Shown here: piece after piece, positions 13,356 to 32,870 of the stretch | Layout of the letters: each line of letters opens with the position of its first letter | Numbering within the stretch: the stretch's first letter is position 1 | NCBI GenBank assembly: GCA_046757405.1 | Contig: JBHHYE010000010.1 | Span: forward strand, 19,386-83,385 | Source of the DNA: Acidobacteriota bacterium | GTDB lineage: Bacteria > Acidobacteriota > Polarisedimenticolia > SMYD01 | Direction: 5' to 3' | DNA length: 64,000 nucleotides | Notes under the pieces: model-generated | Seen by the model: the letters and a program-made list of their open reading frames with translations, nothing else | Told to the model about the DNA's origin: nothing | Database searches by the model: none | Position numbers and translations under genes: made by a program

Positions 13356-13429
13356 CCCCGGAGGCGGTCTGAAGACAGCCGCCTGGAACGGTGGAAGGTC
13401 GTTTCCGGCGCGGGATGGGGAGGGCGGCT

Positions 13430-13912
13430 ATGGTGAAGACCCTGCAGGGGCAGTTGGATGGGCGAGGCTTGCGTTTCGGCCTGGTCTTGCCGCGTTTCAA
13501 CGAGGTTTTCGGGGCGCGGTTGTTGAGCGGGGCCGTGGACTGCCTGGTCCGCCACGGCGCCGCCGAGACAGACCTGACGGTGATCCGGGTTCCCGGGACG
13601 TTCGAGATTCCAGCCGCGGTGCACGCCTTGGTGGCGGCCCAGCAGGTGGATGCGGTGATCGCCCTGGGTGTCTTGATCCGCGGCGCGACCAGCCACTATG
13701 ACCATCTCGCCCTGGCCGTCAGCCGCCGCCTGGCCGAGGAGGCCTGCGGCGGCGGACCAGCCGTGGTCTATGGCATTGTGACCGCCGAGAATCAGGAGCA
13801 AGCCATGGAGCGCTGCGGCGGAAAGGTCGGCAACCGGGGCTGGGAAGCCGCCCTGGCCGCCATCGAGATGGGCCGGCTCCTGAACGAGCTGAACCAGGCC
13901 CGGGGGCGGTAA
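13430..13912 (+). CDS. ribH: 6,7-dimethyl-8-ribityllumazine synthase
   Basis: Start ATG 13430 (MVKTLQG). 'RFGLVLPRFNE', 'IRVPGTFEIP', 'DAVIALGVLIRGATSHYD'. Confidence 0.9.
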   Translation: MVKTLQGQLDGRGLRFGLVLPRFNEVFGARLLSGAVDCLVRHGAAETDLTVIRVPGTFEIPAAVHALVAAQQVDAVIALGVLIRGATSHYDHLALAVSRRLAEEACGGGPAVVYGIVTAENQEQAMERCGGKVGNRGWEAALAAIEMGRLLNELNQARGR

Positions 13913-13923
13913 GAGAGGGCTCG

Positions 13924-14346
13924 ATGGGAAACAGGCGCCGAGGACGGGAGATGGCGCTGCAGATCTTGTTCCAGGTGGACATCACCCGCGATCGCCCCGA
14001 GGAGGTTCTCAAGCGGTTCTGGCAGGATCGGGTGGCTCCGCCGCGGGTGCGGCGGTTCGTGGAAACCTTGACGCTGGGTTCCCTGCGGCACCAGGAAGAG
14101 ATCGACGCCATTATCTCCACGGCCGCAGAGCACTGGCGCCTGGAGCGCATGGCCACGGTCGACCGGAACCTGTTGCGGTTGGCCATCTACGAGATGCGCT
14201 ACCAGACGGAGACCCCGCCGGCGGTGGTCATTGACGAGGCCATCGAGGTGGCCCGCAAGTATGGGTCGGAGGATTCCGCTCCCTTCATCAACGGGATTCT
14301 GGATGCGGCCCGCCGCCTCGTTGAAATGCCCCGGGAAGAGACCTAG
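13924..14346 (+). CDS. nusB: Transcription antitermination factor NusB
   Basis: 'REMALQILFQVD', 'WRLERMATVDRNLLRLAIYEM'; conserved ribH-nusB pair. Confidence 0.9.
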   Translation: MGNRRRGREMALQILFQVDITRDRPEEVLKRFWQDRVAPPRVRRFVETLTLGSLRHQEEIDAIISTAAEHWRLERMATVDRNLLRLAIYEMRYQTETPPAVVIDEAIEVARKYGSEDSAPFINGILDAARRLVEMPREET

Positions 14347-14385: not shown

Positions 14386-15339
14386 GTGAGCGCAGCGGGA
14401 ACCTCCTTCCATCGATCGGTGCTCGTCGTGGAGGACGAGGAGCTGTATCTGCGGGCGCTGGTCATGGATTTCGAGGGACGGGGTTACCGGGTCACGGCCT
14501 GCCGGGATCTGGAGAGCGGCGAATCGGCTTATCGCGAGATGATATCCCGGGGGAGCGGGCTGCTCCTGGTGATCGATCTGATCCAGCCGGGAGAGAATGG
14601 CGGATACCTGGGCGGACTGGATCTCCTCCGCAGGTTGCGGCCCGGGCCGGGCGTGGAAGTGGTCGTGCTGGCCGACAACGAGGCGGCGTGGCTCCAGCGG
14701 GCGGTCTCCAGCCTGGGGGCCGCTCGCCTGGTTCGCAAGCCGGACCTGAGGCGAACAGCGCCGGAGCATCTGGATCGCGCGGTTCAGGCTTTTCTGGCTG
14801 ATCTGTCCCAGCAGCCGCGAGAGGAGGACCGGCCGCTCCCGGCGCCGGTGAGCGACATCGGCGAGGCCGGCCTCCTGCTGGGCGCCCTGGAGGACCTTCG
14901 CCGGGCCCCTGACCGCGCCAGTGTCCTCCTGGTGGCGATGCGGCGCGCGGCGGATATGGCCTCCCGGGGCATTCTCTTCGATGTGGAGGGTGACCATTTG
15001 CGCAGTCTTGGAGGTTTTGGACTGGGCGACGGGATGGATGCGGCCACCCGCGACCGGATTCTCGAGCTCGACCAGGACACCCTCCCCGGACGCGCCTTCT
15101 GGTCTGCCCGGCTCCAGCGCGCCCGGCGCGGCGACCTGGCCGCGCTCATGCCCGATCCGCCCATGCCCCTGCCCGAGGAAGCCGTGGCGCTCCCCATCAT
15201 CGGGCCGGAAGGAGTGGCCGCTGTCCTCTACGCCGACACGGGCGGCGGAGAGGCTCCGTTCAAGGGGCTTCCCGTTCTCTCCGCCATGGCCGATGCGGTC
15301 AGCCTGGCCCTGGAGGGTGTGCAGGGGCGGTCCGGCTGA
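14386..15339 (+). CDS. Response-regulator receiver domain fused to a C-terminal GAF-like domain
   Basis: N-terminal REC fold ('VLVVEDEE..', phospho-acceptor-like D in 'LLLVIDLIQ', K in 'LVRKP'); C-terminal ~170 aa alpha/beta region with GAF-like pattern; first gene of the Che-like cluster. Confidence 0.55.
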   Translation: MSAAGTSFHRSVLVVEDEELYLRALVMDFEGRGYRVTACRDLESGESAYREMISRGSGLLLVIDLIQPGENGGYLGGLDLLRRLRPGPGVEVVVLADNEAAWLQRAVSSLGAARLVRKPDLRRTAPEHLDRAVQAFLADLSQQPREEDRPLPAPVSDIGEAGLLLGALEDLRRAPDRASVLLVAMRRAADMASRGILFDVEGDHLRSLGGFGLGDGMDAATRDRILELDQDTLPGRAFWSARLQRARRGDLAALMPDPPMPLPEEAVALPIIGPEGVAAVLYADTGGGEAPFKGLPVLSAMADAVSLALEGVQGRSG

Positions 15340-15450: not shown

Positions 15451-15825
15451 ATGCAGGTTCTGGTGGTCGATGACTCGCCGTCGATGCGGGCCTTCATCGC
15501 GGGCACTCTCGAGGCCGCGTTCGCGGCCCATGTGACGGAGTCCAGCAATGGCTTCGAGGCGCTCAAGGTTCTCCCCGGCAAGAGCTTCGACGTGATCATT
15601 GCCGACATCAACATGCCCGACATCAACGGGTTGGAGCTCCTCGGTTATTTGAAACAGCACCCCGCGTATTCCTCCATCCCGGTCGTGGTGGTCTCCACAG
15701 CGGTGAGCGATGGTGACCGCCAGCGCGGACTTGCGGCCGGGGCCGCGGCTTACATGAGCAAGCCACTCCAGCCCCAGGAGCTGGAGGACACGCTGCGCTC
15801 CCTCCTGGTCGTGCGGGACGACTGA
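15451..15825 (+). CDS. cheY: CheY-like single-domain response regulator
   Basis: GGAGG RBS before ATG 15451. 'VLVVDDSPSMR', 'DVIIADINMPDINGLEL', 'PVVVVST', 'YMSKP'. Confidence 0.85.
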   Translation: MQVLVVDDSPSMRAFIAGTLEAAFAAHVTESSNGFEALKVLPGKSFDVIIADINMPDINGLELLGYLKQHPAYSSIPVVVVSTAVSDGDRQRGLAAGAAAYMSKPLQPQELEDTLRSLLVVRDD

Positions 15826-15831
15826 GGCGCC

Positions 15832-17859
15832 ATGGAAGATCGGCGATCGAGTCGAGAGCAGGCCGAGTTTCTCGCCGAGGCGCAAGAACTCTTGGAGCGC
15901 CTGGGTGATGATTTGCAGAAGGCCGAGGCCGAGGCGGGCCGCGGCCCGGTCTCGATCCAGAGGCTGAACGGGATGTTCCGGGCCATCCATTCCCTCAAGG
16001 GCCTTGCGGGGATGATGGGCCGCTCGCGGCTGGTGGAGTTCACCCATCACCTCGAGGATTACATGGATCGCCTCCGCATGGGACAGGTAGAAATGAATCC
16101 GCAAGTGGTGAATCTCCTGTTCGAGGCCCACGAGCACCTGGAGCGACTGGTCGAGGGAAGGCCGGTTGATGAGCCCGCGCTGGGCGTCCTGGAGGGCCGG
16201 ATAGGCGGCCCGAAAGAGAGCGCCCAGGTTCCGGCCGCGGCCGCGGATCCTGATGCTCTCGCGGGTCTGGACCCACGGATACGGAACGCGCTGACTCGCT
16301 TCGAGGAACATCGCCTGCGGGAGAATCTTCAGGAAGGGCGGGAGATTTTCTTGGTTCATGTGAGTTTCTCCCTGGACACCTTCGATACCGAACTGCGGGA
16401 GCTGATCGAAAAGCTGAATTCCGGGGGCGAGGTCCTGAGCACGCTTCCCTCCATGAGCGCCGAAGAGGTTGCGGACAGACTGGCATTCGTTCTGCTCCTG
16501 GCCACGGCGTGGAGCGAGGAGCAAGTGAAGAAGGAAGCCGGCCGACCGGTGGTGCTGGAACGCTGGGTCGGGACCCGGGCGGAGCCGCCGGTGAACCCTG
16601 CCGCTCCCGCTCCTGCCGCCGCAGGGAGCCAGGAAGAGGATGGGGCGGTCGACGGACCGGCCTGGCTCGCCATGGGCAGCGTCCGGGTGGATCTGAAACG
16701 CCTAGACCGGATCATGAACTCGGTTGGCGAGCTGGTCTTGTTCAGAAAAGCGATCGGTTCCGTGGCGCGGAAACTGCTGGATCGCGAAGGAACCCATGCT
16801 CTGGGCCGGGACCTGGATCGTTCGACTCGGGATCTGGACAAGAGAATCCACGAGCTGCAGAAATCGGTGATCGGTGCGCGCATGGTGCCCATGAGCCAGA
16901 TCGTGGGGCGGCTCTCCCGGCTCGTCCGCAAGGTGTCCGCGCAGGCGGGAAAAAAGGTGGTCCTGGTGGCGCGGGGGGAGAGAACCGAGCTGGACAAGGT
17001 CATGATCGACCGCCTTTTCAGCCCTCTCATTCATCTGGTGCGGAATGCCATTGACCACGGTATTGAACCGCCCGCTGTCCGCCGCGCGGCAGGAAAGAAT
17101 GAAACGGGAACTCTGGAGCTGTCGGCCATCCAGGGCGGCAACTCGGTGCTTGTGACCCTGGCCGACGATGGCAGAGGCCTGGATGTGGAGGCGGTGCGCC
17201 AAGTCGCGGTGAGACAAGGGATCCTTGCCGCGGACACGGAGGTCGATCTGGAGGTGGCGCGGGAGCTGATCTTCCAGCCGGGATTTTCCTCCGCTGTTTC
17301 GGTCGATGAGGTGTCGGGGCGCGGTTTCGGTCTCGATGTGGTGCGCCGGGACATTGCGAGTTTGAGTGGGAGCGTGCGCTTGACGAGTCAGCCGGGCCAG
17401 GGCACCTGCGTCGAGCTCGAACTGCCCATCACGCTCGCCATCATCCAGTGCACACTGATCGGAGCGGGGCCATCGATGTTTGCGGTGCCTGTGACGTCCC
17501 TCGTGGAAACCTTGCGGTTCCGTCCCGGGCGGTTGGAAACCATCGCCGGAAGTCCGGTGATCCGCCTGCGTGGTGAGATCTTGCCGCTCGTCGATTTGCG
17601 CACTTACTCTCGGCTGGGACACCAGGCCTCTGGCGGTCTGGAGTTTGTCGTGGTCGCCCGCTGCGGAGAAAAAAAGCTCGCACTCGGGGTCGAGACCCTC
17701 AGCGGCCAGCAGGAGGTTGTCATCAAACCGGTCGACTCCCGGCTGGAGAATATCCCCGGCCTGGCCGGAGCCACGGAGATCGGCGAGAACCAGACCGCGC
17801 TGGTTCTCGATGTGACCTCACTCGGTGCGGATGTGCGGACCCTGAGCGGCGCGGCTTGA
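15832..17859 (+). CDS. cheA: Chemotaxis histidine kinase CheA
   Basis: HPt 'FRAIHSLKG', dimerisation domain, HATPase 'HLVRNAIDHGIE', 'DDGRGLD', 'GRGFGLDVV', C-terminal CheW-like domain. Confidence 0.9.
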   Translation: MEDRRSSREQAEFLAEAQELLERLGDDLQKAEAEAGRGPVSIQRLNGMFRAIHSLKGLAGMMGRSRLVEFTHHLEDYMDRLRMGQVEMNPQVVNLLFEAHEHLERLVEGRPVDEPALGVLEGRIGGPKESAQVPAAAADPDALAGLDPRIRNALTRFEEHRLRENLQEGREIFLVHVSFSLDTFDTELRELIEKLNSGGEVLSTLPSMSAEEVADRLAFVLLLATAWSEEQVKKEAGRPVVLERWVGTRAEPPVNPAAPAPAAAGSQEEDGAVDGPAWLAMGSVRVDLKRLDRIMNSVGELVLFRKAIGSVARKLLDREGTHALGRDLDRSTRDLDKRIHELQKSVIGARMVPMSQIVGRLSRLVRKVSAQAGKKVVLVARGERTELDKVMIDRLFSPLIHLVRNAIDHGIEPPAVRRAAGKNETGTLELSAIQGGNSVLVTLADDGRGLDVEAVRQVAVRQGILAADTEVDLEVARELIFQPGFSSAVSVDEVSGRGFGLDVVRRDIASLSGSVRLTSQPGQGTCVELELPITLAIIQCTLIGAGPSMFAVPVTSLVETLRFRPGRLETIAGSPVIRLRGEILPLVDLRTYSRLGHQASGGLEFVVVARCGEKKLALGVETLSGQQEVVIKPVDSRLENIPGLAGATEIGENQTALVLDVTSLGADVRTLSGAA

Positions 17860-17884: not shown

Positions 17885-18406
17885 ATGAGCGGTATGGGAA
17901 AGGCAGCAGAGACACCGTCACCGGGGCTGGACCCGCTGACGGCGGGCACGGGCGGTGGCGGGCCGAACCGGGCCGCGGAAGCCGGTCCCCGCCAGTTTCT
18001 CACCTTTTGCCTCGCAGGCGAGCGCTACGGGATCATCATCGACAGCATCGTCGAGATACTCAAGTACAGGCAATCGACTCCCATCCCCAGGGCACCGGAG
18101 GTGGTGCATGGCATTGTCTCGCTGCGGGGCCATATCGTGACGGTGATCGATGGACGCTTGCGGCTCGGGCATTCCAAGGCCCAGGTTGGCCCGGCTTCAC
18201 GCATCATCGTTGTCCGTGACGGTGCGGAGACGGTTGGAATCCTGGTGGATGAGGTCCTGCAGGTCATGAAGCTCCCGGCGGATGCCATCGGCCCGCCGCC
18301 AGAAACCGTGGCCCAGGCGGGTGAGTGTGGGATTCTCGGCGTCTGCGATACAAGGCAGGAATCGATTCTCATTCTCCTGGACGTGCATGAGTTCTTGAAG
18401 GTTTAG
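17885..18406 (+). CDS. cheW: Chemotaxis coupling protein CheW
   Basis: 'FLTFCLAGERYGI', 'VHGIVSLRGHIVTVIDGR', 'GILVDEV'. Confidence 0.9.
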   Translation: MSGMGKAAETPSPGLDPLTAGTGGGGPNRAAEAGPRQFLTFCLAGERYGIIIDSIVEILKYRQSTPIPRAPEVVHGIVSLRGHIVTVIDGRLRLGHSKAQVGPASRIIVVRDGAETVGILVDEVLQVMKLPADAIGPPPETVAQAGECGILGVCDTRQESILILLDVHEFLKV

Positions 18407-18415
18407 GAGGGAACG

Positions 18416-19312
18416 GTGGACAGAACATTGCTCATCGGGTGCCCGGCGTGCGGCCGGCGGTATCGATTCGACGCCCAGCGCTTCGGAACTACCGGAATCA
18501 GAATCCGTTGTCGTTTCTGCCAGGAGATCATGCGAGTGGAGATCAGCCAGGAGGAGACGACCGGCTCGGGCCCGGACTCTCCCGCTCCGGAACCAGGGCA
18601 GCCGGGACCCTTCTCCGCCGCGCCGGACCCGGTGGAGGCGGAGCCTGGCGCCCTGGTGGCTGACAGCGAAGGATCTGTCCGGTCGACGGTGAGCGAGACG
18701 CTGCGCGCGTCGGGCTATCTGGTTGATGAAGTCGAGAACGGGGTGGAAGTCCGGCGCTTCGTGGCGGTTCACCGGCCGCAGGTCGTTTTTCTGAATGTCT
18801 TTCTTCCCCACGTGCTGGGTGTCACTCTCTGCTCCGAGATCAAACGACATCCGGAGCTGTCGAAAACCCGGGTCATCCTGGTGGGGTCCCTCTACCGCCG
18901 CGATCGGTTCATGCGGGACCCCAGGGATCTCTACGGGGCGGACGGTTTTCTGGATGCCAACGGCTCGCCGGAAGAAGTGCGCCAGCGGGTTCGCGATCTG
19001 GCTGAAACGCTGAAGCCTGTCACGGGGCCGGGCGAAATGGATGGATCCGGCGATGCCCTTGAAGAGCTCAGGCGGCTGGCGCGGATCGTGGCCGGTGACA
19101 TCATCCTTTACAATCCCGAACGGGCGGAGGAGGAGATTGCGAGCGGCCGGTTCTTTGACACTTTCGCGGAGGAAATCCGCGAGGGGGAAGCGCTGGTGAA
19201 CCGCCGCTTTCCGGATATCGCGGATGGAGGGTCTCTTTATCATGAAACCCTCCGGGAAGCGGTCGTGCAGCATTCGGCGGCGGCCGGCATCCCGAGCCCT
19301 GTGGGTCGCTAG
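18416..19312 (+). CDS. MJ0042-type zinc-ribbon + receiver (REC)-like domain protein
   Basis: GTG start after a GGAGG RBS. N-terminal 'CPACGRRYRF..IRCRFCQEIM' double-CxxC zinc ribbon; disordered linker; REC-like fold ('GALVADSEGSVR', 'VVFLNVFLP', 'ILVGS'). Confidence 0.55.
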   Translation: MDRTLLIGCPACGRRYRFDAQRFGTTGIRIRCRFCQEIMRVEISQEETTGSGPDSPAPEPGQPGPFSAAPDPVEAEPGALVADSEGSVRSTVSETLRASGYLVDEVENGVEVRRFVAVHRPQVVFLNVFLPHVLGVTLCSEIKRHPELSKTRVILVGSLYRRDRFMRDPRDLYGADGFLDANGSPEEVRQRVRDLAETLKPVTGPGEMDGSGDALEELRRLARIVAGDIILYNPERAEEEIASGRFFDTFAEEIREGEALVNRRFPDIADGGSLYHETLREAVVQHSAAAGIPSPVGR

Positions 19313-19318
19313 CCGGCC

Positions 19319-21526
19319 ATGGGAACGCCCGGCGATCATGGCATGATCCTGGATGGGCGGGAGAGCATCGGGGAGCTCATCTCGCTTCTGGGACACTCGA
19401 ACCTCCGGGTCCGCCGCTCCGCGATTGCAGCCCTGGTGGAGAGGGAGCCCTCTGAAACCCTTCCGGGCGTGCTGGCGGCCCTGGGGGATCAGGAGAACGC
19501 CGCCGCCCGCAGCGCAGCGGGCGATGTCTTGCTGCGGTACGGGCAGCGTATCCTGGAACCTTTGACCCGCACCCTGGATCCGGATGGCCACCGGGACCGG
19601 ACCATCCAGCTCCTGGATATTCTGGCGTGTATCCCGGCCCGGGCCACCGTCAAGGCCGTGATTCCTCTGGCTTCCCATCCCGACCCGTCGGTGGCCGCCA
19701 GTGCCATCAGCTGCCTCGGGACCCTGCGCGATCCTTCATCGGTTCCGACCCTGCTGGAAGTCTTGGACAGCCAGAAGCGCTGGCAAACGTTCTATGCCAT
19801 CGATGCGCTTGGAGAAGTGGGGCATGCGGCTGCGGTGAACCGCCTGGTGCCGCTGATCAAGGATCCCTATTACCGCAAGGCGGTGCTCCGGGCACTGGGA
19901 AAGATTGGCGATGAGTCAGCGGTTGGTCCCCTGGTGGAGGCCCTGGCGGCGGGGACGCCGCCTCCTGACCGGACAGCGCTGGCGTCTCTCGACGAAATGG
20001 TGGAGCGCTCCCGGAGTTCGCTGGGGCGGGAGAGCTTGATCGCCCGGATCCGTGGAGAGCTGCGGATCCGGCAGGATGCGGCCCTCATCGACGGTCTGGC
20101 CCAGCTATTGCGGGAGGGCGCCATCGAGACGCGATGCCAGGCGGCGCGCGTCCTCGGCTGGATGGGCGGCAAGGAGGTGGCGGCGCCACTGGTCCATGCG
20201 TGTGGCGAGCCTTTTCTCGCGGACACGGCGGCCCAGGCTCTCCAGAGTCTCGAAGGCGGGCATGTGGAGGAGATCCTGGATGCGATGCGCTCGGTGGCTC
20301 TTTCGGGACTTGCGCTGTGCCGGCTCATCAAGATCCTGGCGGGTACGCTGACCGAGCGGACGGAACAGTTCTTCATCATGGCGCTTGAACACGAGGAGGA
20401 AGACGTCCGGCAGGCCGCGGCGGCGGCGCTGGCCCGGGCTGCTGAAGGTCGGTACCTGGAGATCCTCGTGCGCGTCCTGGGCGACCCGGCGCCCTTGGTG
20501 TCCAGCGAGGCGGTGAAAGGACTGACGGCGATTGCCGAGCGGTCGGAAGCCCTGCGCGAGCACGTGGCCGGCCGGGTCGAGGGGTTGACGGCCTCGCCTT
20601 CCCCCGAGATGCGGGGAGCCGCCCTCCAGGTCATCGCTAGACTGCATGGAGATGGAGCCGGGGAGATCCTCGACCTGGCCCTGCATGACCCCGTGGCCGT
20701 CGTCCGGCGGACCGCTGTGGCCTTGCTGGGGGAGGATCCCGATCCCGATCGCCTGTGGCGGCTCAGCGTGGCGCTGGCCGATGAGGATTCGCGGGTGCGG
20801 GAAGAAGCGGTTCACGCGGTGGGCCGTCTGCAAGACCAGAGAGCCCGCGGCGTTCTCCTCTCTTCCTTGCACGATCGGAGCCCCTGGGTCAGGTGCCGCG
20901 CGGCGCGGGCCCTGTCCGACCATCCCGCGGCGGAAGTCCGGGTGGCCTTGGAGCAGGTGGTCCGGAACGATATCTTGCCGGTCAAGGTTGCCGCCATCGA
21001 AGCTCTTGCATCACTCTGGCCCGCGACCCGGGACTTCTTGGTCGAAGGGACCCGGAGCCAGGAAGCGGAAATCCGGCGGGCCTGTCTGGTCGCCCTGGCG
21101 CGCCGGGAAGGGGACGCGCCCATGGAGGTCCTCGCGGGCGCTCTCGAGGACCCGGCCTGGCCAGTGCGTTGCGCGGCGGCGGAAGCCCTGGGAGCAAGCG
21201 GAGACGCGGCGGCCTTCGAGCCGGTCTCCCGAGCTCTGGATCGGGAGAGGGATGGCTCCGTGCGCCGGGCCCTGATCGGCGCTCTTTACCACTTGGATGC
21301 CGAATCGGCGTTGCCTTTTCTCATCGCCGGCCTGTCCGAGAAGGATATTGCCGATACGGCCGGAGAACTGCTGGTCCGCGGGCGAACTCTGTTTGCAGAC
21401 GAGCTCCGGGCCGAGTGGGCTTCGGAAATGGACCCGGCGATCCGGGAAGGGCTGGCGGTGGTCCTCGAGGAGGTCGGGAGGCGGGAAGCCCAGGGAACGG
21501 CGGCAGAAGAAGGCGGCCCGTCGTGA
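19319..21526 (+). CDS. HEAT/PBS-lyase-like repeat protein (735 aa)
   Basis: More than 12 tandem ~30-aa HEAT-like repeats ('VRRSAIAALV', 'VRCRAARALSDH', 'VRCAAAEALGASGD' etc.) embedded between cheW and cheR. Confidence 0.7.
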   Translation: MGTPGDHGMILDGRESIGELISLLGHSNLRVRRSAIAALVEREPSETLPGVLAALGDQENAAARSAAGDVLLRYGQRILEPLTRTLDPDGHRDRTIQLLDILACIPARATVKAVIPLASHPDPSVAASAISCLGTLRDPSSVPTLLEVLDSQKRWQTFYAIDALGEVGHAAAVNRLVPLIKDPYYRKAVLRALGKIGDESAVGPLVEALAAGTPPPDRTALASLDEMVERSRSSLGRESLIARIRGELRIRQDAALIDGLAQLLREGAIETRCQAARVLGWMGGKEVAAPLVHACGEPFLADTAAQALQSLEGGHVEEILDAMRSVALSGLALCRLIKILAGTLTERTEQFFIMALEHEEEDVRQAAAAALARAAEGRYLEILVRVLGDPAPLVSSEAVKGLTAIAERSEALREHVAGRVEGLTASPSPEMRGAALQVIARLHGDGAGEILDLALHDPVAVVRRTAVALLGEDPDPDRLWRLSVALADEDSRVREEAVHAVGRLQDQRARGVLLSSLHDRSPWVRCRAARALSDHPAAEVRVALEQVVRNDILPVKVAAIEALASLWPATRDFLVEGTRSQEAEIRRACLVALARREGDAPMEVLAGALEDPAWPVRCAAAEALGASGDAAAFEPVSRALDRERDGSVRRALIGALYHLDAESALPFLIAGLSEKDIADTAGELLVRGRTLFADELRAEWASEMDPAIREGLAVVLEEVGRREAQGTAAEEGGPS

Positions 21527-22395
21527 ACGAGTCCGCGAACCTCTCCTTTTCGGCCGACCTGGCACCGCCGAAGCTTTCCGAGGACAGCCTCAGGCTGGTC
21601 CTGGAGCTGCTCAACCGGCGCTTCGGCTTCCAGTTCCATCGCTCATCCCAGGAGATGGCCCGGACCCGGATTGCGCGTCACATGGAGGAACTGGGCCTCG
21701 CCGATCTTCGTGATTATTACTACCGGTTGTTGTATGACCCGGAAGGGGACGCCGAACTGGACAATCTCTTCGAGCTCTTGGTCAACAACGAGACCTATTT
21801 CTTTCGCGAGGAGAGCCAGATCTGGACCTTTGCGGATGAAATTCTCTCCCAGCGTCTCACGGCCCGGCCAGAGAGCCGGATTCGGGTCTGGTGTGCAGGA
21901 TGTTCCACGGGCGAGGAACCTTATTCTCTGGCCATCGCAACTCTCGAACGCCAGGGGCCCAGGGCGAACCGGGTGGAGATCTTCGGCTCGGACCAGTCCA
22001 GAAAGGCCCTCGATCGCGGCCGCATGGGCAACTTCAGCTCGTTTGCTTTCAGGAGCACCCCCCCTGAACTGCGAAAAAAATACTTCGAGGCGGAGAGCAA
22101 GAACCGCTGGCGAATCGTTCCCGCGGTCCGGCGGATGGTGCAGTTCGGGAGATGCAATCTTCTGGGGTCGGCGGGAGATTTGCCTCTGGTCAAGTTTGAC
22201 GCCATCTTTTGCCGCAACGTGCTGATCTACTTTGATCGAGAGGCCAGGCGCCAGGTGATCAATCTCTTCTATGAGCGGCTGGCGGAGGGCGGATACCTCT
22301 TCCTGGGCCACTCGGAGTCGCTCCTGGATCTTTCGGACCGCTTCGAGTTCGCCCAACTGAGCCAGGACGTTGCCTACCGGCGGGACGCGCCATGA
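21523..22395 (+). CDS. cheR: Chemotaxis protein methyltransferase CheR
   Basis: GTG start overlaps the HEAT-protein stop (GTGA). 'ETYFFRE', 'RVWCAGCSTGEEPYSLAI', 'FDAIFCRNVLIYFD'. Confidence 0.9.
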   Translation: MNESANLSFSADLAPPKLSEDSLRLVLELLNRRFGFQFHRSSQEMARTRIARHMEELGLADLRDYYYRLLYDPEGDAELDNLFELLVNNETYFFREESQIWTFADEILSQRLTARPESRIRVWCAGCSTGEEPYSLAIATLERQGPRANRVEIFGSDQSRKALDRGRMGNFSSFAFRSTPPELRKKYFEAESKNRWRIVPAVRRMVQFGRCNLLGSAGDLPLVKFDAIFCRNVLIYFDREARRQVINLFYERLAEGGYLFLGHSESLLDLSDRFEFAQLSQDVAYRRDAP

Positions 22396-23528
22396 GACGC
22401 GTTCTCATCGTCGATGACTCGGCTTTCAACCGGGTGACCCTGGAGCGCGCCCTCCGGGATGTTCCCGGGATTCAGGTCGTGGGCACCGCAGTGGACGGTT
22501 ATGATGCCATTCGCCAGATCCGGCGGTGGCAACCGCACGTCATGACCCTCGACCTGGAAATGCCGCGGATGGATGGTCTGAGCCTGATTCGCTGGGTCAT
22601 GCAGCGCCACCCGCTGCCCATCCTGGTGGTGACGTCACGGGAATCAAATTACTCCCTTTTCGAGGCGCTGGAGCTCGGAGCGCTTGATTTTGTCCTCAAG
22701 CCGGGAAGGGTCAGCCCGGATCTGGCTTCCATTCGCCAGGATCTGATCACCAAGATCCATCAGGTCGTGGATATTCCCATGCACGCGCGCCGGTACCGGC
22801 CGGGGGATCACCGGACAGCCGCGGACACGCCGCCAGCGCCGGCGGTTTGCCTGGAACCACTGGCCGCGGGCCATGTGCCCCGGGTGATTGCCATGGTGGC
22901 ATCCACCGGCGGGCCGGCTGCTCTGCAAGTCATTCTCAGAGCGCTGCCCGGGACGTTCCCGATTCCCATCATCGTGGTCCAGCACATGCCGTCCCATTTC
23001 ACGCAGGCCTTTGCCAGACGTCTGGACGAGACCGCTTCCTTGAAGGTGGTGGAGGCCAGGAAAGGCGAGCAGGTCCTTCCGGGCATGGTCTTGATCGCGC
23101 CGGGCGGCTCCCACATGATGCTGGTCGAGGGGAGCCAGCGAAGCTTGTGGATTGCGCTCCGCCCGGGCCTCGAGACGGATCCGTACATTCCCTCCGGCGA
23201 CCGACTCCTGGCATCGGTGGCGGCGGTTTGCGGGGACGCTGGAGCGGGGGTGATCCTCACCGGCATGGGACAGGACGGATGCCAGGGCCTGAAACGGTTG
23301 CGCGAAGCGGGCGGGCTCACCATGGCCGAATCCGAGGAGTCGGCCGTGGTCTACGGCATGCCGCGGCATGCCCTCGCGGCCGGAGCGGTGCAGGAGATCA
23401 TGCCTCTGGAGCAGATCGTGGCCCAGATCAAACTGATGGGCCAGGCGGCGGCATCCGCCGCTCTTGGCGGACCGGCGACCCAGGCTACGGATCGATTCGC
23501 CGCCCAGGAGAGAAGGGAGAACGCATGA
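22392..23528 (+). CDS. cheB: Chemotaxis response regulator protein-glutamate methylesterase CheB
   Basis: N-terminal REC ('VLIVDDSAFNR', 'MTLDLEMPRMDG'); C-terminal methylesterase ('ASTGGPAAL', 'VVQHMP', 'GMGQDG'). Confidence 0.9.
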   Translation: MRRVLIVDDSAFNRVTLERALRDVPGIQVVGTAVDGYDAIRQIRRWQPHVMTLDLEMPRMDGLSLIRWVMQRHPLPILVVTSRESNYSLFEALELGALDFVLKPGRVSPDLASIRQDLITKIHQVVDIPMHARRYRPGDHRTAADTPPAPAVCLEPLAAGHVPRVIAMVASTGGPAALQVILRALPGTFPIPIIVVQHMPSHFTQAFARRLDETASLKVVEARKGEQVLPGMVLIAPGGSHMMLVEGSQRSLWIALRPGLETDPYIPSGDRLLASVAAVCGDAGAGVILTGMGQDGCQGLKRLREAGGLTMAESEESAVVYGMPRHALAAGAVQEIMPLEQIVAQIKLMGQAAASAALGGPATQATDRFAAQERRENA

Positions 23529-24394
23529 CGAGAGAGTACTGGAGAGGGAGCCTGGCCCCTACGGCTTACCTCGATGCCGCTCTGCAGAGCGTGCGGGACG
23601 CCTGCGAAAAACTGGTTGAGGAAAACCGTGTTCTCCGAGCCGATCCCAAGCGGCCGGTTGGCATTCAGCCGGAGCAGATGAAGGTCCTGGAGGAACGGAT
23701 CGCGCAGCTGGAAGCCGAAAACCGCGGGCTCCACCAAGCCGTTGTGTCTGCGGTGGATCAGCAGGCGTCCCGTCAGGAGGACCTCCTCGCCAGTCTCTAC
23801 GTGGCCGGCTTCCAGTTGCATCGCTCCCTGGACATGGATGCGGTGGTGTCGTCGATGAAGGAAATTCTCATCAACCTGGTCGGCGCAGCGAGCTTTCTCA
23901 TTTATCTCCATGATGCCCGGGATCGCAGCCTCATCCGGATCGCTGATGAAAGTAACGCTGCGCCGCGACTCCGGCGCATGGCCGTGGGCGAAGGAATCCT
24001 GGGGGTGGTGGTCAAGACGGGGATTGCGTACTTTGACCAGGAATCGCCCCAGGGCGACTACCACAACCCGATCGCCTGCATCCCGCTCAGAGTCAAGACG
24101 GAGGTCGTGGGGCTCATCCAGATCTGCACCCTGCTGGTCCAGAAGGGCCAGCTCAATGCGCAGGATCACGAGTTGCTCTCCATGCTGGCGGAGCATGGCG
24201 GTATCGCCCTCCTGGCCGCGAGTCTTCACCGCCGGTACCGGAAGGAGGCGGAAGCGGAATCCCTGTGCTGGAGCGATGTGCTCCTCCCGTCCCTGGAATG
24301 CCCGGATGTGGACCCTGTCTTGAGAATCAGCGATGGCCAGGGGAACGGCGCGTCCAGCGCGGCCGGGACCACGGCTGGGGAGGAGAGGGGATGA
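23525..24394 (+). CDS. Coiled-coil + GAF-domain protein
   Basis: ATG overlaps the cheB stop (ATGA). N-terminal heptad coiled coil ('MKVLEERIAQLEAENRGL'); GAF-like core ('GILGVVVKTGIAYF', 'IPLRVKTEVVGLIQI'). Confidence 0.55.
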   Translation: MTREYWRGSLAPTAYLDAALQSVRDACEKLVEENRVLRADPKRPVGIQPEQMKVLEERIAQLEAENRGLHQAVVSAVDQQASRQEDLLASLYVAGFQLHRSLDMDAVVSSMKEILINLVGAASFLIYLHDARDRSLIRIADESNAAPRLRRMAVGEGILGVVVKTGIAYFDQESPQGDYHNPIACIPLRVKTEVVGLIQICTLLVQKGQLNAQDHELLSMLAEHGGIALLAASLHRRYRKEAEAESLCWSDVLLPSLECPDVDPVLRISDGQGNGASSAAGTTAGEERG

Positions 24395-24795
24395 TGGAGA
24401 CCCTGAATTTCCTGGTGGTGGAGGATTCACCGACCATGAGGCAACTCATCAGCTTTCCCCTGCGGCGGTTCTCCGATTGCCGCATCATCGAGGCGGTGGA
24501 CGGGGCGGACGCGCTGCGGAAACTGGCCTTCGAGCCGGTTGATATCGTCATCACCGACATCAACATGCCGATCATGGACGGCTTGAAGCTCGTGAGTGTG
24601 GTGCGCAGCAACCCGGGGACGGAGACTCTTCCCATCATCATCGTCACCACCGAGGGAGCCGAGGAGGACCGCCGGCGCGGGATGGCTCTGGGGGCGGATG
24701 CTTACGTGGCGAAGCCTATCGAGGGGGATGAGCTGATCCGAACGGTGACGGATGTCCTCCGGAAGCGCGGCCTGACCAGTCCGGCTGTGACTTGA
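24391..24795 (+). CDS. cheY: CheY-like single-domain response regulator (second copy)
   Basis: ATG overlaps the GAF stop (ATGA). 'FLVVEDSPTMR', 'DIVITDINMPIMDG', 'PIIIVTT', 'YVAKP'. Confidence 0.85.
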   Translation: MMETLNFLVVEDSPTMRQLISFPLRRFSDCRIIEAVDGADALRKLAFEPVDIVITDINMPIMDGLKLVSVVRSNPGTETLPIIIVTTEGAEEDRRRGMALGADAYVAKPIEGDELIRTVTDVLRKRGLTSPAVT

Positions 24796-24827: not shown

Positions 24828-25355
24828 GTGCCTCACCCCCGGAGAGTGGCTGCCTGTCTGGTCTCGATGATTCTCTTGGGGTGGACTGCGTGTGGTTACC
24901 GCCTGGTGGGCCGGGGCGGATTTCTCCCTCCGGGCATCCAGTCGATCGGCGTGCCCACCTTCGCGAACCTCACCGACCGGCCGGAGCTGGAACAGCGAAT
25001 TTCCGAGGAGATCCTGACCCAGCTGCAGACCCGAACCCGGCGTCGCACGTCGGCGGTGGGAACGGGAGTGGATGCCGTCCTCAGGGGAGAAGTCACGAGT
25101 TTTCGTTCGGTGCCTGTCGAGTTCAATCCGGACGGCCGGGCGCGCACGATCGAGGTGACCATCACGGTGCGGGCCAGCCTGACCTCCACCGCGGACCACC
25201 AGGTGATCTGGGCCGCCGATCATTTTGTCTTTCGCGAGAGTTACCCGGTCGGGGAACAGGCCATCCAGTTCGTGGACCAGGAAACCTTGGCGCTGGAAAG
25301 CGTGGCCGGAGACTTTGCCGAGGCGGTGGTCACGTCGATCCTGGAAGGATTCTAG
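24828..25355 (+). CDS. lptE: LPS-assembly lipoprotein LptE-like
   Basis: Signal + 'LLGWTACGYRLVGRG' (LptE-like 'CGFHLRG' N-terminus); conserved position immediately upstream of holA. Confidence 0.65.
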   Translation: MPHPRRVAACLVSMILLGWTACGYRLVGRGGFLPPGIQSIGVPTFANLTDRPELEQRISEEILTQLQTRTRRRTSAVGTGVDAVLRGEVTSFRSVPVEFNPDGRARTIEVTITVRASLTSTADHQVIWAADHFVFRESYPVGEQAIQFVDQETLALESVAGDFAEAVVTSILEGF

Positions 25356-25361
25356 CCGGCG

Positions 25362-26417
25362 GTGAATGAGTCCGGTTTCACGGTGCTGGACGCGGCCCTG
25401 GGACAGGCTCCTCCGGAGTCTCTCTACCTCCTGGTCGGAGCCAACCTGTGGGAGCGAGAGCGCTGTCTTGAAAGACTCCAGCGCGCGGTTCTGGGTGATG
25501 GCGGTCTTCTGGGTTTCACCCAGAGCCGAGCCGGGGACGGCCGGGTCGCGGACCTGCTGGACGCGGCCCGGACGCTGCCCATGGGCGGGGGACGCCGCCT
25601 CATCGTCCTCAAGGATTGTGAGGCGCTGGAGCGGGAGGATCTGGAACAGCTCGCCGCCTACGCCGTTCATCCGCAGGAAACCACCTGTCTTGTCCTCGTG
25701 GCGGATGCGCTCCCTTCGACCCGGAAGACCACGAAGATCCTGTACCGGCAAGGTGTGACGGTGAAGTGCCCCCTCCTCCGTGCCCACGAGATTCCCAGGT
25801 GGATGGCCTCCGTGATCCGGCGCCGCGGGTTCAGCCATGACCCGGGGGTTCCCGAGATCCTGGTCGAGACGCTGGGCCACGACCAGGCAACCCTGGTGGC
25901 CGGCCTGGAGACGATCGCCCTCTATCTGGGCGGGAAATCGGCGCAGAGGATCACCCCTTCCATCGTGAATGCCGTTCTCGTGCCCATGGCCCATGGCACG
26001 GTCTGGGAATTCATCGAGGCCCTGGAGGAAAAAAATGCTCCGCTGGCGCTGGCGAGGCTGGGCTCGATGCTGGACCTGGGCGAGTCTGTCGAGTCTCTCC
26101 TCCGCCTGGTGACGCGCAGCCGGAAGCAGCTCCTGGCGGGAGTCGCAGCCCGGCAGGAGGGGGGCGGGGAGGAGGCCGTTCTCGAGGCGATGGGAGTCCA
26201 TCCCCGGGCGCGAGCCGTGCCAAGGGTGCGCCGGGCGATTCTGAGCCGCCTGGCGCGGCACACCCAGGACGAGCTGGTCCACGGGCTGGACCGGGTGCTG
26301 GACGCCGACTCCCAGATGAAAGGGGGCGGCCCGGGGAATCCGGACGTGGTCCTCACCCGCCTGGTTCTGGACCTGTGCCGGGCCGGGTCATTTCCGGGGG
26401 CCCGGACGGGCGCTTGA
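25362..26417 (+). CDS. holA: DNA polymerase III delta subunit
   Basis: GTG start; 'LYLLVGANLWERERCLE', delta-subunit clamp-loader fold pattern; lptE-holA synteny. Confidence 0.8.
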   Translation: MNESGFTVLDAALGQAPPESLYLLVGANLWERERCLERLQRAVLGDGGLLGFTQSRAGDGRVADLLDAARTLPMGGGRRLIVLKDCEALEREDLEQLAAYAVHPQETTCLVLVADALPSTRKTTKILYRQGVTVKCPLLRAHEIPRWMASVIRRRGFSHDPGVPEILVETLGHDQATLVAGLETIALYLGGKSAQRITPSIVNAVLVPMAHGTVWEFIEALEEKNAPLALARLGSMLDLGESVESLLRLVTRSRKQLLAGVAARQEGGGEEAVLEAMGVHPRARAVPRVRRAILSRLARHTQDELVHGLDRVLDADSQMKGGGPGNPDVVLTRLVLDLCRAGSFPGARTGA

Positions 26418-26463
26418 GCTTCCGACCGTGGGTCACTAGACTCGGTTCATCCTGCCGGTCATC

Positions 26464-26483
26464 CACCCGAGGGCCCGGGTGGA
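26464..26483 (+). terminator. GC-rich hairpin (7-bp stem CCACCCG/CGGGTGG, 6-nt loop) downstream of holA
   Basis: Perfect inverted repeat 47 nt after the holA stop, followed by a U-containing 'AGUCUGUUCGUGG'; weak T tract, so attenuator or terminator is uncertain. Confidence 0.3.
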
Positions 26484-26517
26484 GTCTGTTCGTGGCGCAG
26501 GCTGAAGGGGGATAGGG

Positions 26518-26829
26518 ATGTCTCAGGAGATGGCCGGAGAGAAACCCAAGAAGCCTCGAGCCAGCCGGGTGGAGATCAAGCTCCCGGATCACCTGGCAGG
26601 AGGGGTCTATGCCAACAACATGGTTGTCTCTCACACCCGCGAGGAGTTCGTCCTCGATTTCCTGGCTGTTTTTCATCCGCGCGCCGGGGTGGTGAGCGCC
26701 CGCGTGGTCTTGAGTCCGGGACACCTGAAGCGCGTAGTCCGCGCCCTCACGGAGAATCTGTCCCGCTATGAAGCCCGTTTCGGAGAGTTGATCGAGGCGG
26801 CGTCGCCGGAAGACGGCAAGGTGCAGTAG
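26518..26829 (+). CDS. DUF3467-family small protein
   Basis: 'KLPDHLAGGVYANNMVVSHTREEFVLDF' matches the DUF3467 signature as I recall it. Confidence 0.6.
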   Translation: MSQEMAGEKPKKPRASRVEIKLPDHLAGGVYANNMVVSHTREEFVLDFLAVFHPRAGVVSARVVLSPGHLKRVVRALTENLSRYEARFGELIEAASPEDGKVQ

Positions 26830-30443: not shown

Positions 30444-31592
30444 ATGCGCACGAAGGGTCGTTATCTTTTCACCTCCGAATCGGTCACCGAGGGGCATCCT
30501 GACAAGATCGCAGACCAGATTTCCGATGCGGTCCTGGATGCTGTTCTGACGGGGGACCCCTCCGGGCGGGTGGCGTGTGAAACCTTGGTGACCACGGGAC
30601 TGGCCGTGGTCTCCGGAGAGATCACCAGCAAGAACCCCATCGATATCCCGCGGATTGTCCGCGAGACCATTTGTGATGTCGGCTATACACGGGCCAAGTT
30701 CGGCTTCGATCACGAGACCTGTTCGGTGGTGGCCTGTCTGGACAGGCAGTCAGAAGATATTGCCCTCGGTGTGAATACCGGCGGGGCCGGCGATCAGGGG
30801 CTCATGTTCGGCTACGCCTGTGATGAGACGGAAGAGCTCATGCCGATGCCGATTCAGCTGGCGCATCGGCTGGTTCGCTCTCTGTCGGAGAATCGCCGGT
30901 CCAAGCGAATGCCCTACCTGCGTCCGGATGGCAAGTCCCAGGTGACGGTCGAATACGAGGGCCTGAAACCGGTGAGAGTGCATACCATTGTGGTTTCCAG
31001 CCAGCACGCGCCCGACGTCTCCAGGGAGCAGATACGCGAGGAGGTTCTCGCGCATGTGGTCCGCCCGTCCATTCCCGAGGGAATGCTGGACGGGAAGACC
31101 AGGGTCCTGGTCAACCCCACCGGGCGCTTCGTGCGCGGTGGCCCCCAGGGTGATTGCGGTTTGACTGGACGGAAGATCATCGTTGATACTTACGGGGGCG
31201 TGGCGCGCCATGGCGGTGGGGCCTTTTCCGGCAAGGATCCCACAAAGGTGGATCGGTCCGCTTCGTACATGGCGCGGCACATCGCCAAGACCATCGTCGC
31301 CGCCCGGCTCGCCGCCCGCGTCGAGGTGCAGCTCGCCTACGCCATTGGTGTTGCGGAGCCCGTATCGGTGATGGCGGATACTTTCGGGACCGGCCGGGTG
31401 GCGGAAGAGGCCATCGAGAGGGCTGTGATGGAGACCTTTGACCTGACGCCGGACGGTATCATTCGGTCCCTCGATCTGCGCCGGCCTATTTATCGAAAAA
31501 CAGCTGCTTTTGGCCATTTCGGCCGGACAGAACCGGAATTCACCTGGGAACGGACCGATCGCGCCGCATCGCTCACCAAGGACGTGCGGTAG
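30444..31592 (+). CDS. metK: S-adenosylmethionine synthetase
   Basis: '[21 protein letters not shown]', '[12 protein letters not shown]', '[16 protein letters not shown]'. Confidence 0.95.

Positions 31593-32870
<1,278 letters not shown>

What the first reader, a model, noticed from the sequence alone, without database searches (positions are those of the whole stretch)
19319..21526. 735-aa HEAT/PBS-lyase-like repeat protein inserted between cheW-side genes and cheR
It contains more than 12 tandem HEAT-like repeats and no catalytic motif. Its stop overlaps the cheR GTG start, so it is co-translated with the methylation module. In M. xanthus Che7 a HEAT-repeat protein (Cpc7) is the interaction target of CheY7. 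Here the protein is much larger and sits inside the operon, suggesting a scaffold or output adaptor for a phosphorylated CheY.
Basis: partly seen in the sequence, partly recalled or inferred. Interest (0 to 1): 0.55.

Follow-up and report, generated by a model that had tools for sequence, protein, structure and literature searches.

The report
Cpc7-type HEAT protein in che operon
The 735-residue HEAT-repeat protein is real and is a full-length relative of Cpc7, the known CheY-binding HEAT protein of the Myxococcus Che7 pathway, so it is a new member of a known, widespread but poorly understood family of chemosensory accessory proteins.

Summary
ORF 19319-21526 (+) encodes a 735-aa protein that is HEAT repeats from end to end (Pfam HEAT_2 E 4e-64; AlphaFold pLDDT 91, 44 helices). 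Its TGA stop overlaps the GTG start of cheR. It sits in a ten-gene operon with no MCP gene: REC-like, CheY, CheA, CheW, Zn-ribbon/pseudo-receiver, HEAT, CheR, CheB, GAF, REC.

The only HEAT gene in the M. xanthus che7 cluster encodes 788 aa. It lies between mcp7 and cheR7, the same slot as here. The window's orthologue profile aligns collinearly with that group over 673 columns (hhalign probability 100%, E 1e-45).

The HEAT gene lay directly upstream of cheR-cheB in all 83 measurable loci. Those, plus three further loci from other subfamilies, come from at least five phyla. They include the Geobacter beta/Esn cluster, whose gene order is the closest match. The median gap to cheR is 4 nt.

Best reading: a non-enzymatic solenoid adaptor that binds phosphorylated CheY and passes the signal to lineage-specific effectors. 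The fixed coupling to cheR also allows a role in adaptation. It is a new member of a known kind, of moderate-to-low interest.

The parts
19319..21526 (+). Cpc7-type HEAT-repeat solenoid protein, 735 aa (the finding)
   Evidence: Pfam HEAT_2 E 4e-64. AF2 pLDDT 91 with 44 helices. Collinear full-length homology to the myxobacterial Cpc7 group.
21523..22395 (+). CheR methyltransferase, 290 aa. Its GTG start overlaps the HEAT stop by 4 nt.
   Evidence: Pfam CheR E 1.6e-56 plus CheR_N. Overlap shown.
22392..23528 (+). CheB methylesterase with N-terminal receiver; 4-nt overlap with cheR
   Evidence: Pfam CheB_methylest E 1.5e-59 and Response_reg. Overlap.
23525..24394 (+). GAF-domain protein, 289 aa, with GAF at residues 102-229; 4-nt overlap with cheB
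   Evidence: Pfam GAF_2 E 4e-9. A gene of the same kind sits in this slot in L002, L004, L006, L007, L012 and L095.
24391..24795 (+). Single-domain receiver (second CheY-like protein), 134 aa, with canonical D, T and K residues
   Evidence: Pfam Response_reg E 7e-26. Alignment to E. coli CheY. 36% identity to M. xanthus CheY7.
18416..19312 (+). Zinc-ribbon + degenerate (pseudo-)receiver + conserved C-terminal domain protein, 298 aa, directly upstream of the HEAT gene
   Evidence: Pfam Zn_ribbon_4 and Response_reg. It has Asn at the phospho-acceptor position and no equivalent of Lys109. It is the positional equivalent of Geobacter GSU2217.
17885..18406 (+). CheW, 173 aa
   Evidence: Pfam CheW E 3e-31.
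15832..17859 (+). CheA histidine kinase, 675 aa (Hpt, dimerisation, HATPase and CheW domains; no receiver)
   Evidence: Pfam. The domain layout matches that listed for CheA7 in PMC3945109.
15451..15825 (+). CheY, 124 aa, canonical; positional equivalent of CheY7
   Evidence: Pfam Response_reg E 3e-26. Gene call in L001. 37% identity to CheY7. Active-site residues present.
14386..15339 (+). REC-like 317-aa protein at the head of the cluster (weak receiver plus about 190 aa of unknown C-terminal sequence)
   Evidence: Pfam Response_reg E 8e-6, below the curated cut-off. It occupies the slot held by a PatA_N-REC protein in Geobacter.

Best explanation
The gene encodes a member of the Cpc7 family. 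These are 650-900-aa proteins made only of HEAT repeats and are a fixed component of one class of non-flagellar chemosensory pathways: M. xanthus Che7, probably Che8, and the Geobacter 'beta group' or Esn cluster.

Most likely mechanism: the roughly 22-repeat solenoid has no enzymatic activity and works as a protein-protein adaptor. CheA (15832-17859), activated by a chemoreceptor encoded elsewhere in the genome, phosphorylates a single-domain CheY (15451-15825 and/or 24391-24795). CheY~P then binds the solenoid through its alpha4-beta5-alpha5 face, as reported for CheY7 and Cpc7. That binding changes what the solenoid holds or releases. The candidates are lineage-specific partners: the GAF protein and the Zn-ribbon pseudo-receiver here, and Des7 in Myxococcus.

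Shown here: the HEAT solenoid fold, full-length homology to the Cpc7 group, the invariant position upstream of cheR-cheB, and the absence of catalytic or MCP features. Inferred: CheY~P binding (from the literature on Cpc7), the identity of downstream partners, and the cellular output. The output is probably surface, biofilm or developmental behaviour, as for Esn and Che7.
For: HEAT-only architecture and a confident solenoid model.

Collinear homology to the M. xanthus che7 HEAT protein: BLASTP E 2e-30 over residues 107-613 versus 125-624, and hhalign probability 100%, E 1e-45, columns 15-706 versus 33-713.

L042 is the che7 cluster. Its gene sizes, CheY 125, CheA 687, CheW 148, MCP 850, CheR 273 and CheB 348 aa, followed by a fatty-acid desaturase, match the Che7 table of PMC3945109. 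It holds a single HEAT gene, whose protein clusters with the DK1622 'PBS lyase HEAT-like repeat protein'.

Cpc7 is described as a HEAT protein that binds CheY7 in PMC11514114. [quoted passage not shown]

Every che-type subfamily sampled keeps the order HEAT-CheR-CheB: plus 80 genome loci.

The genes after cheB vary. They are GAF+REC, REC plus a faint (unconfirmed) CheX hit, REC alone, or desaturase+PilZ. This fits a constant adaptor serving variable effectors.

Both cluster CheYs have canonical phospho-acceptor residues and are 36-37% identical to CheY7.
Against: No binding data exist for this protein or for any non-myxobacterial member. Identity to Cpc7 is only 27-30%. I could not read Darnell et al. 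2014, so Cpc7 was equated with the 788-aa gene by elimination, together with my recollection of the che7 gene list. One review describes Cpc7 as having '27 alpha-helices', fewer than a 788-aa solenoid should have.

The most conserved genomic feature is the tight, often overlapping junction with cheR (median gap 4 nt in 83 loci). That points at least as much to the adaptation enzymes as to CheY.

Here and in Geobacter the gene upstream encodes a receiver-like protein that cannot be phosphorylated in the window. That protein could be the real REC-fold partner.
Confidence: 0.55

Rival explanations
1. Adaptation-module scaffold. The solenoid is made in fixed proportion with CheR by translational coupling. 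It docks CheR and/or CheB onto the receptors of this pathway class, much as the NWETF pentapeptide tether or the TPR domain of CheR-TPR fusions do. CheY~P binding, if present, would feed kinase output back onto methylation.
For: HEAT is directly upstream of cheR in every measurable locus across several phyla. The median gap is 4 nt, 81 of 83 gaps are 30 nt or less, and 30 overlap. In the window HEAT, CheR, CheB, GAF and REC are chained by four 4-nt overlaps. The neighbours upstream of HEAT vary (Zn-ribbon REC, MCP or CheW), whereas cheR never does.
Against: Conserved gene order can simply be inherited and is not an interaction test. The published Cpc7 partner is CheY7. No member carries an MCP-type methylation motif, so the protein is not itself a canonical CheR substrate.
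Confidence: 0.22
2. Array-organising or localisation scaffold. The solenoid assembles or positions the CheA-CheW complex in a cluster that has no receptor gene of its own. It would bind the constitutive pseudo-receiver protein encoded upstream rather than a phosphorylated CheY.
For: There is no MCP signalling domain anywhere in the 64-kb window. The Zn-ribbon pseudo-receiver gene ends 6 nt before the HEAT start and co-occurs with HEAT in Acidobacteriota, Geobacter and L012.
Against: The Zn-ribbon protein is absent from the Che7-type, L006, L011 and L093 clusters, which still carry the HEAT gene. Clusters that contain MCP genes also keep the HEAT gene. Geobacter EsnB and EsnC gave positive two-hybrid signals with the MCP EsnA in assays that did not include the HEAT protein (PMC5585712).
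Confidence: 0.12
3. Bilin-lyase-like enzyme (CpcE/F or NblB type) that attaches or removes a tetrapyrrole on the neighbouring GAF protein.
For: The repeats are of the HEAT_PBS type. A GAF protein is encoded two genes downstream here, in Geobacter, and in L006 and L012. The Geobacter partner receptor EsnA is also a GAF protein.
Against: NCBIfam lyase models score far below their cut-offs: NblB 92 versus 300 bits, CpcE 65 versus 330, CpcF 37 versus 220. The protein is about three times longer than CpcE or CpcF. Che7-type clusters have the HEAT gene but no GAF gene.
Confidence: 0.03

Closest known systems
Cpc7 of the Myxococcus xanthus Che7 pathway (788-aa 'PBS lyase HEAT-like repeat protein', ABF92517.1 / Q1CWZ7; taken as MXAN_6961 by position)
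   Same: HEAT-only solenoid of similar length. End-to-end collinear homology. Same slot immediately upstream of cheR-cheB and downstream of cheA-cheW. The CheY and CheA partners have the same size and domain layout.
   Different: Identity is only 27-30%. The Che7 cluster carries a cytoplasmic MCP (Mcp7) just upstream and a desaturase (Des7) downstream. The window has a Zn-ribbon pseudo-receiver upstream, GAF plus a second CheY downstream, and no MCP. The host is Acidobacteriota rather than Myxococcota.
Geobacter 'beta group' che cluster (Tran et al. 2008) = Esn cluster, GSU2212-GSU2224 (Chan et al. 2017)
   Same: This is the closest match in gene order: CheY, CheA, CheW, Zn-ribbon REC, HEAT, CheR, CheB, GAF, REC (L007 and L095). 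There is no mcp gene in the cluster. Even lptE-holA recur downstream. The HEAT proteins are homologous: P0067 scores E 8e-27 at 25% identity over 86% of the query.
   Different: Geobacter adds a PatA_N-REC protein, an AAA ATPase, and an extra CheW and CheY. The partner receptor EsnA and a role in electrode colonisation are known for Geobacter only. The HEAT gene itself (the GSU2216 slot) has not been studied. I inferred its identity from gene order and from the GSU numbering in the supplement.
M. xanthus Che8 cluster (MXAN_4751-4759)
   Same: It has no MCP, a 290-aa CheR, CheY genes at both ends, and two unnamed genes (4754 and 4755) exactly where the HEAT and Zn-ribbon genes lie here. Tran et al. 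list M. xanthus among the genomes with a beta-group cluster.
   Different: I could not fetch the MXAN_4754 and MXAN_4755 sequences, so this equivalence is a prediction. The function of Che8 is unknown.
Haloarchaeal HEAT_PBS protein OE2401F (Halobacterium salinarum che region)
   Same: A HEAT_PBS repeat protein encoded in a che region, needed to pass CheY output to the effector, with pull-down interactions with CheD and the CheF-family protein OE2402F (PMC2666748).
   Different: It is archaeal and works with CheF and the archaellum. No orthology can be established beyond the shared repeat type, and it is not linked to cheR.
CpcE/CpcF/NblB phycobiliprotein lyase family, and eukaryotic HEAT scaffolds (importin-beta, CAND1, SF3B1, PP2A-A)
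   Same: The same repeat type by sequence for the lyases, and the same superhelical fold for the scaffolds.
   Different: Lyase models score well below their family cut-offs and there is no phycobiliprotein context. The eukaryotic proteins are structural analogues only (11-15% identity).

Membership tests
Cpc7-type che-associated HEAT proteins | Protein consists only of HEAT/HEAT_PBS repeats forming one long solenoid (about 650-900 aa) | tested here: met
   Pfam finds HEAT families only. AF2 gives 44 helices at pLDDT 91. Fold matches are HEAT solenoids.
Cpc7-type che-associated HEAT proteins | Full-length, collinear sequence homology to the M. xanthus che7 HEAT protein, not just repeat-level similarity | tested here: met
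   BLASTP gives 30% identity over 515 residues in register, E 2e-30. hhalign gives probability 100%, E 1e-45, over 673 columns, 15-706 versus 33-713.
Cpc7-type che-associated HEAT proteins | Encoded inside a cheA/cheW/cheY cluster, immediately upstream of cheR-cheB | tested here: met
   Window gene order. The same order holds in all 83 measurable loci. A 1028-aa HEAT protein with a similar E-value is not che-linked and serves as a negative control.
Cpc7-type che-associated HEAT proteins | Binds the cognate single-domain CheY in a phosphorylation-dependent way | not testable with these tools
   Reported for Cpc7 and CheY7 only (Darnell 2014, as cited in PMC11514114 and PMC9040617). Testing it needs biochemistry or multimer modelling.
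Geobacter beta-group / Esn-type chemosensory cluster | cheA, cheW, cheR and cheB present with no mcp in the cluster | tested here: met
   Pfam on all operon genes. No MCP signalling domain in the 64-kb window by tblastn. Definition taken from PMC2577667.
Geobacter beta-group / Esn-type chemosensory cluster | Accessory gene set and order: Zn-ribbon REC, HEAT, CheR, CheB, GAF, REC | tested here: met
   The order is identical in L007 and L095 (Geobacteraceae) and in the window.
Geobacter beta-group / Esn-type chemosensory cluster | Signals from a class 40H MCP (EsnA-like) encoded elsewhere | not testable with these tools
   Only 64 kb of the genome is available and it holds no MCP.
CpcE/CpcF/NblB bilin lyases | Score above the NCBIfam equivalog cut-off | tested here: not met
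   NblB 92 versus 300 bits, CpcE 65 versus 330, CpcF 37 versus 220, CpeY 42 versus 600.
Methyl-accepting chemotaxis proteins / CheR substrates | MCP signalling domain, or the methylation consensus [ASTG][ASTG]xx[EQ][EQ]xx[ASTG][ASTG] at a conserved position | tested here: not met
   No MCPsignal hit. The window protein has no motif match, and only 2 non-conserved matches occur among 55 family members.

The most novel reading that the evidence does not exclude
The Cpc7-type solenoid is not a downstream effector. It would be a core subunit, made in fixed proportion with the other components, of this class of chemosensory complex. It would physically bridge CheY~P and the CheR/CheB adaptation enzymes, giving an output-to-adaptation feedback comparable in logic to CheC/CheD/CheY~P in Bacillus but built from a HEAT scaffold. 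It would also offer docking sites for interchangeable effectors (GAF protein, Des7, pseudo-receiver). That would explain why its junction with cheR is as conserved as the cheR-cheB pair itself across at least five phyla.
Probability: 0.15. Interest if true: 0.65.

Novelty: new member of a known kind. Interest (0 to 1): 0.3.

Why it matters
Chemosensory pathways that control functions other than flagellar motility are common, but how they produce an output is mostly unknown. This analysis shows three things:
- The one characterised HEAT-repeat output protein, Cpc7, is not a myxobacterial oddity. It belongs to a family with a fixed position next to cheR.
- The family occurs in Acidobacteriota, Geobacteraceae, Myxococcota, Bdellovibrionota and Gemmatimonadota-type clusters.
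- The Geobacter Esn electrode-sensing cluster contains an unstudied member.

This gives a concrete and testable candidate for the missing output or adaptation link in those systems. For the window itself the result is an annotation upgrade, from 'HEAT repeat protein' to 'Cpc7-family chemosensory adaptor', not a new kind of system.

Tried and rejected
I used the myxobacterial subfamily alignment A3 instead. The systematic 80-locus sample is therefore mostly Myxococcota and Bdellovibrionota. The other phyla are covered only by single look-ups.

2. Darnell et al. 2014 and Sharma et al. 2018 are not held. The identity and size of Cpc7 were reconstructed from L042, the Moine et al. tables and the protein cluster names.

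3. The afdb50 fold library was unavailable.

4. HEAT protein as a receptor substitute or CheR substrate: rejected, because it has no MCP domain and no methylation consensus.

5. Bilin lyase: rejected on family cut-offs.

6. A search for an MCP gene in the window found none.

7. I considered folding an in-frame read-through of the Zn-ribbon gene plus the HEAT gene as a pseudo-complex.

8. G. sulfurreducens itself did not appear among the top 120 hits to the Geobacteraceae protein. 'GSU2216 = HEAT' therefore rests on gene order.
Full report
**Observation.** The ORF at 19319-21526 (+) is intact (ATG to TGA, 735 codons, no internal stop). Pfam finds only HEAT-type repeats: HEAT_2 at E 4.4e-64 in ten stretches, HEAT at 3e-29 and HEAT_PBS at 5e-18. 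An AlphaFold2 model built on a 55-sequence family alignment is confident (mean pLDDT 91, pTM 0.71). It is entirely helical, with 44 helices or about 22 hairpins, and only residues 1-9 and 731-735 are disordered. Foldseek against the PDB returns long HEAT solenoids (SF3B1, CAND1, karyopherin-beta2) and the designed alphaRep proteins. Sequence search of the PDB finds only alphaRep, MTH187 and one unnamed HEAT protein. The TGA stop overlaps the GTG start of cheR (gtcGTGAacg). The one correction is that the gene directly upstream is not cheW.

**The operon.** On the + strand, between ribH-nusB and lptE-holA-dnaE, lie ten tightly spaced genes:
- a weak REC-like protein (14386-15339)
- CheY (15451-15825)
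- CheA (15832-17859)
- CheW (17885-18406)
- a zinc-ribbon plus receiver-like protein (18416-19312)
- the HEAT protein
- CheR (21523-22395)
- CheB (22392-23528)
- a GAF protein (23525-24394)
- a second CheY-like receiver (24391-24795)

The last five genes are chained by four 4-nt overlaps. tblastn with five MCPs from related clusters found no MCP signalling domain anywhere in the 64-kb window. The host is an Acidobacteriota MAG.

**Relatives and their context.** The homologue search gave 18 orthologues of about 735 aa at 54-64% identity, then a sharp drop to 23-30% identity. Orthologue loci L001-L005 show the same flanking genes, and the two long ones (L002, L004) repeat the whole neighbourhood. 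The distant hits fall into length-homogeneous subfamilies. I looked up one member of seven subfamilies. Six sit immediately upstream of cheR-cheB within a cheA/cheW cluster:
- P0021 (L006)
- P0067, Geobacteraceae (L007)
- P0059 (L009, L010)
- P0037 (L011), whose 40%-identity cluster includes Longimicrobium and Gemmatimonadaceae proteins
- P0101 (L012)
- P0098 (L093)

The seventh, a 1028-aa protein with a comparable E-value (P0083), is not che-linked. Membership is therefore defined by length, collinearity and context, not by E-value alone.

A scan of one genome per GTDB species with the roughly 785-aa subfamily found 257 relatives. The 80 loci kept come from Myxococcus, Corallococcus, Sorangium, Polyangium, Labilithrix and Bdellovibrionota. 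In every locus with enough flank the order is CheA, CheW, a gene of about 2.4 kb, HEAT, CheR, CheB. Over 83 loci the gap between the HEAT stop and the nearest cheR start has a median of 4 nt. It is 30 nt or less in 81 loci and negative in 30.

**Identification with Cpc7.** L042 is from M. xanthus. Its genes encode CheY 125 aa, CheA 687, CheW 148, an MCP of 850 aa (MCPsignal E 2e-42), HEAT 788, CheR 273, CheB 348, then a fatty-acid desaturase. These sizes match CheY7, CheA7, CheW7, Mcp7, CheR7 and CheB7 (MXAN_6965 to MXAN_6959) in Moine et al. 2014 (PMC3945109). It is the only HEAT gene within 10 kb. Its 90%-identity cluster includes ABF92517.1, 'PBS lyase HEAT-like repeat protein [M. xanthus DK 1622]', also 788 aa.

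PMC11514114 describes Cpc7 as a HEAT protein that binds the single-domain response regulator CheY7. [quoted passage not shown] I recall that the che7 cluster encodes two accessory proteins, Cpc7 and the desaturase Des7. The HEAT gene between mcp7 and cheR7 is therefore Cpc7. I could not read Darnell et al. 2014 directly, so this step is an inference.

The window protein aligns to this protein collinearly: 30% identity over 515 residues, 107-613 versus 125-624, E 2e-30. The two orthologue-group profiles align end to end: hhalign probability 100%, E 1e-45, 673 columns. Cpc7 is slightly larger and sits in the same slot.

**Closest system.** In gene content the window matches the Geobacter cluster best. 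L007 and L095 (Geobacter sp. AOG1) read PatA_N-REC, CheY, CheA, AAA, CheW, CheY, CheW, Zn-ribbon REC, HEAT, CheR, CheB, GAF, REC. In L095, lptE-holA follow further downstream. This order fits the numbering GSU2224 to GSU2212: cheY40H-1 to -4 are at GSU2223, 2219, 2217 and 2212, cheA is GSU2222, the ATPase is GSU2221 and cheW is GSU2220.

This is the 'beta group' of Tran et al. 2008, defined by cheA, cheW, cheB and cheR without mcp. They reported it only from delta-proteobacteria, including M. xanthus (PMC2577667). It is also the Esn cluster of Chan et al. 2017, which is needed for electrode colonisation and was paired with the distant GAF-containing class 40H receptor EsnA on the basis of shared mutant phenotypes and two-hybrid interactions (PMC5585712). 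M. xanthus Che8 (MXAN_4751-4759) has no MCP and two unnamed genes at the right place, so it is probably the myxobacterial equivalent. That equivalence is untested. The Geobacter-type HEAT subfamily is large and uniform, at about 667 aa.

**Mechanism.** The protein has no catalytic domain and is a continuous solenoid, the standard architecture of protein-binding scaffolds. The only experimental information on the family is that Cpc7 binds CheY7. Both CheY-like proteins of the window keep the phospho-acceptor Asp, the Thr/Ser and the Lys, and are 36-37% identical to CheY7. The genes after cheB differ between lineages (GAF+REC, REC with a faint and unconfirmed CheX-family hit, REC alone, or desaturase+PilZ), while HEAT-CheR-CheB is constant. 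I therefore favour a CheY~P-regulated adaptor that couples a conserved signalling core to variable effectors (confidence about 0.55).

The main rival is that the solenoid serves the adaptation enzymes, because the cheR junction is the most conserved feature. It is not a canonical CheR substrate, since no methylation consensus is present in any of 55 members at a conserved site. A bilin-lyase role is unlikely because all lyase models score far below their cut-offs. An array-organising role tied to the Zn-ribbon pseudo-receiver is possible in this lineage, but it cannot be general because many clusters lack that gene.

**Verdict.** The feature is real, non-random and correctly read as a HEAT scaffold in a che operon. 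It is a new, phylogenetically distant member of the Cpc7 family within a Geobacter-beta/Esn-type (Che8-like) cluster. The modestly new points are the extension of this cluster type to Acidobacteriota and other phyla, and the recognition that the HEAT gene is a fixed, cheR-coupled component. Interest is moderate to low (0.3). It would rise if the solenoid proved to link CheY~P to CheR/CheB.

Noticed in passing
window 18416-19312 (+): The gene just upstream of HEAT encodes an N-terminal zinc ribbon, a Pro-rich linker, a degenerate receiver and a conserved C-terminal domain (RLARI..GDIILYN...GRFF motif). The receiver has Asn at the phospho-acceptor position, A-D instead of D-D in the acidic pocket, and no Lys109 equivalent. 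The same architecture occurs in L002, L004, Geobacter (L007, L095; GSU2217 is annotated cheY40H-3) and L012. The Geobacter copy keeps the Asp.
   Followed up: partly
window 1-64000: No MCP signalling domain is encoded anywhere in the window, although the operon has CheR and CheB. The receptor must be encoded elsewhere, as EsnA (GSU1704) is for the Geobacter cluster.
   Followed up: yes
window 13391-14346 and 24828-30320; L012, L093, L095: The chromosomal setting of the che cluster is itself conserved. ribH-nusB lie upstream here, in L002, L004 and L093. lptE-holA lie downstream here, in L002, L004, L012 and, after an inserted cytochrome gene and leuS, in Geobacter sp. AOG1. This suggests old vertical inheritance, or transfer of a larger block.
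   Followed up: partly
window 14386-15339 (+): The first gene of the cluster encodes a 317-aa protein. It has a sub-threshold receiver domain, with the Asp kept and Ala at the Thr87 position, followed by about 190 residues with no family match. Geobacter has a PatA_N (PATAN)-REC protein in this slot.
   Followed up: partly
window 23525-24394 (+): The GAF protein has no NCBIfam match. About 100 residues, with only weak sub-threshold hits to helical families, precede the GAF domain. GAF domains recur in this pathway type, in both the cluster GAF protein and the Geobacter receptor EsnA.
   Followed up: no
window 30444-32870 (+): metK (SAM synthetase) and ahcY (SAH hydrolase) lie about 6 kb downstream of the CheR-containing operon. 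This is probably coincidental housekeeping synteny. metK is also present in L002.
   Followed up: no
L042 15427-16548 (+) (M. xanthus): A PilZ-domain protein is encoded right after the desaturase (Des7) at the end of the che7 cluster. This hints at a c-di-GMP link for that pathway.
   Followed up: no
L009 7617-10004 and L011 7817-9925: The 700-800-aa genes between cheW and HEAT have no precomputed Pfam hit, but they are cytoplasmic Mcp7-like receptors (MCPsignal E about 1e-41 when scanned directly). A '-' in the precomputed context tables can therefore hide an MCP.
   Followed up: yes
L095 15250-17376 (+) (Geobacter sp. AOG1): A 708-aa multi-haem cytochrome c7-type protein is encoded immediately after the che cluster in Geobacter. 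This is interesting given the cluster's role in electrode sensing.
   Followed up: no
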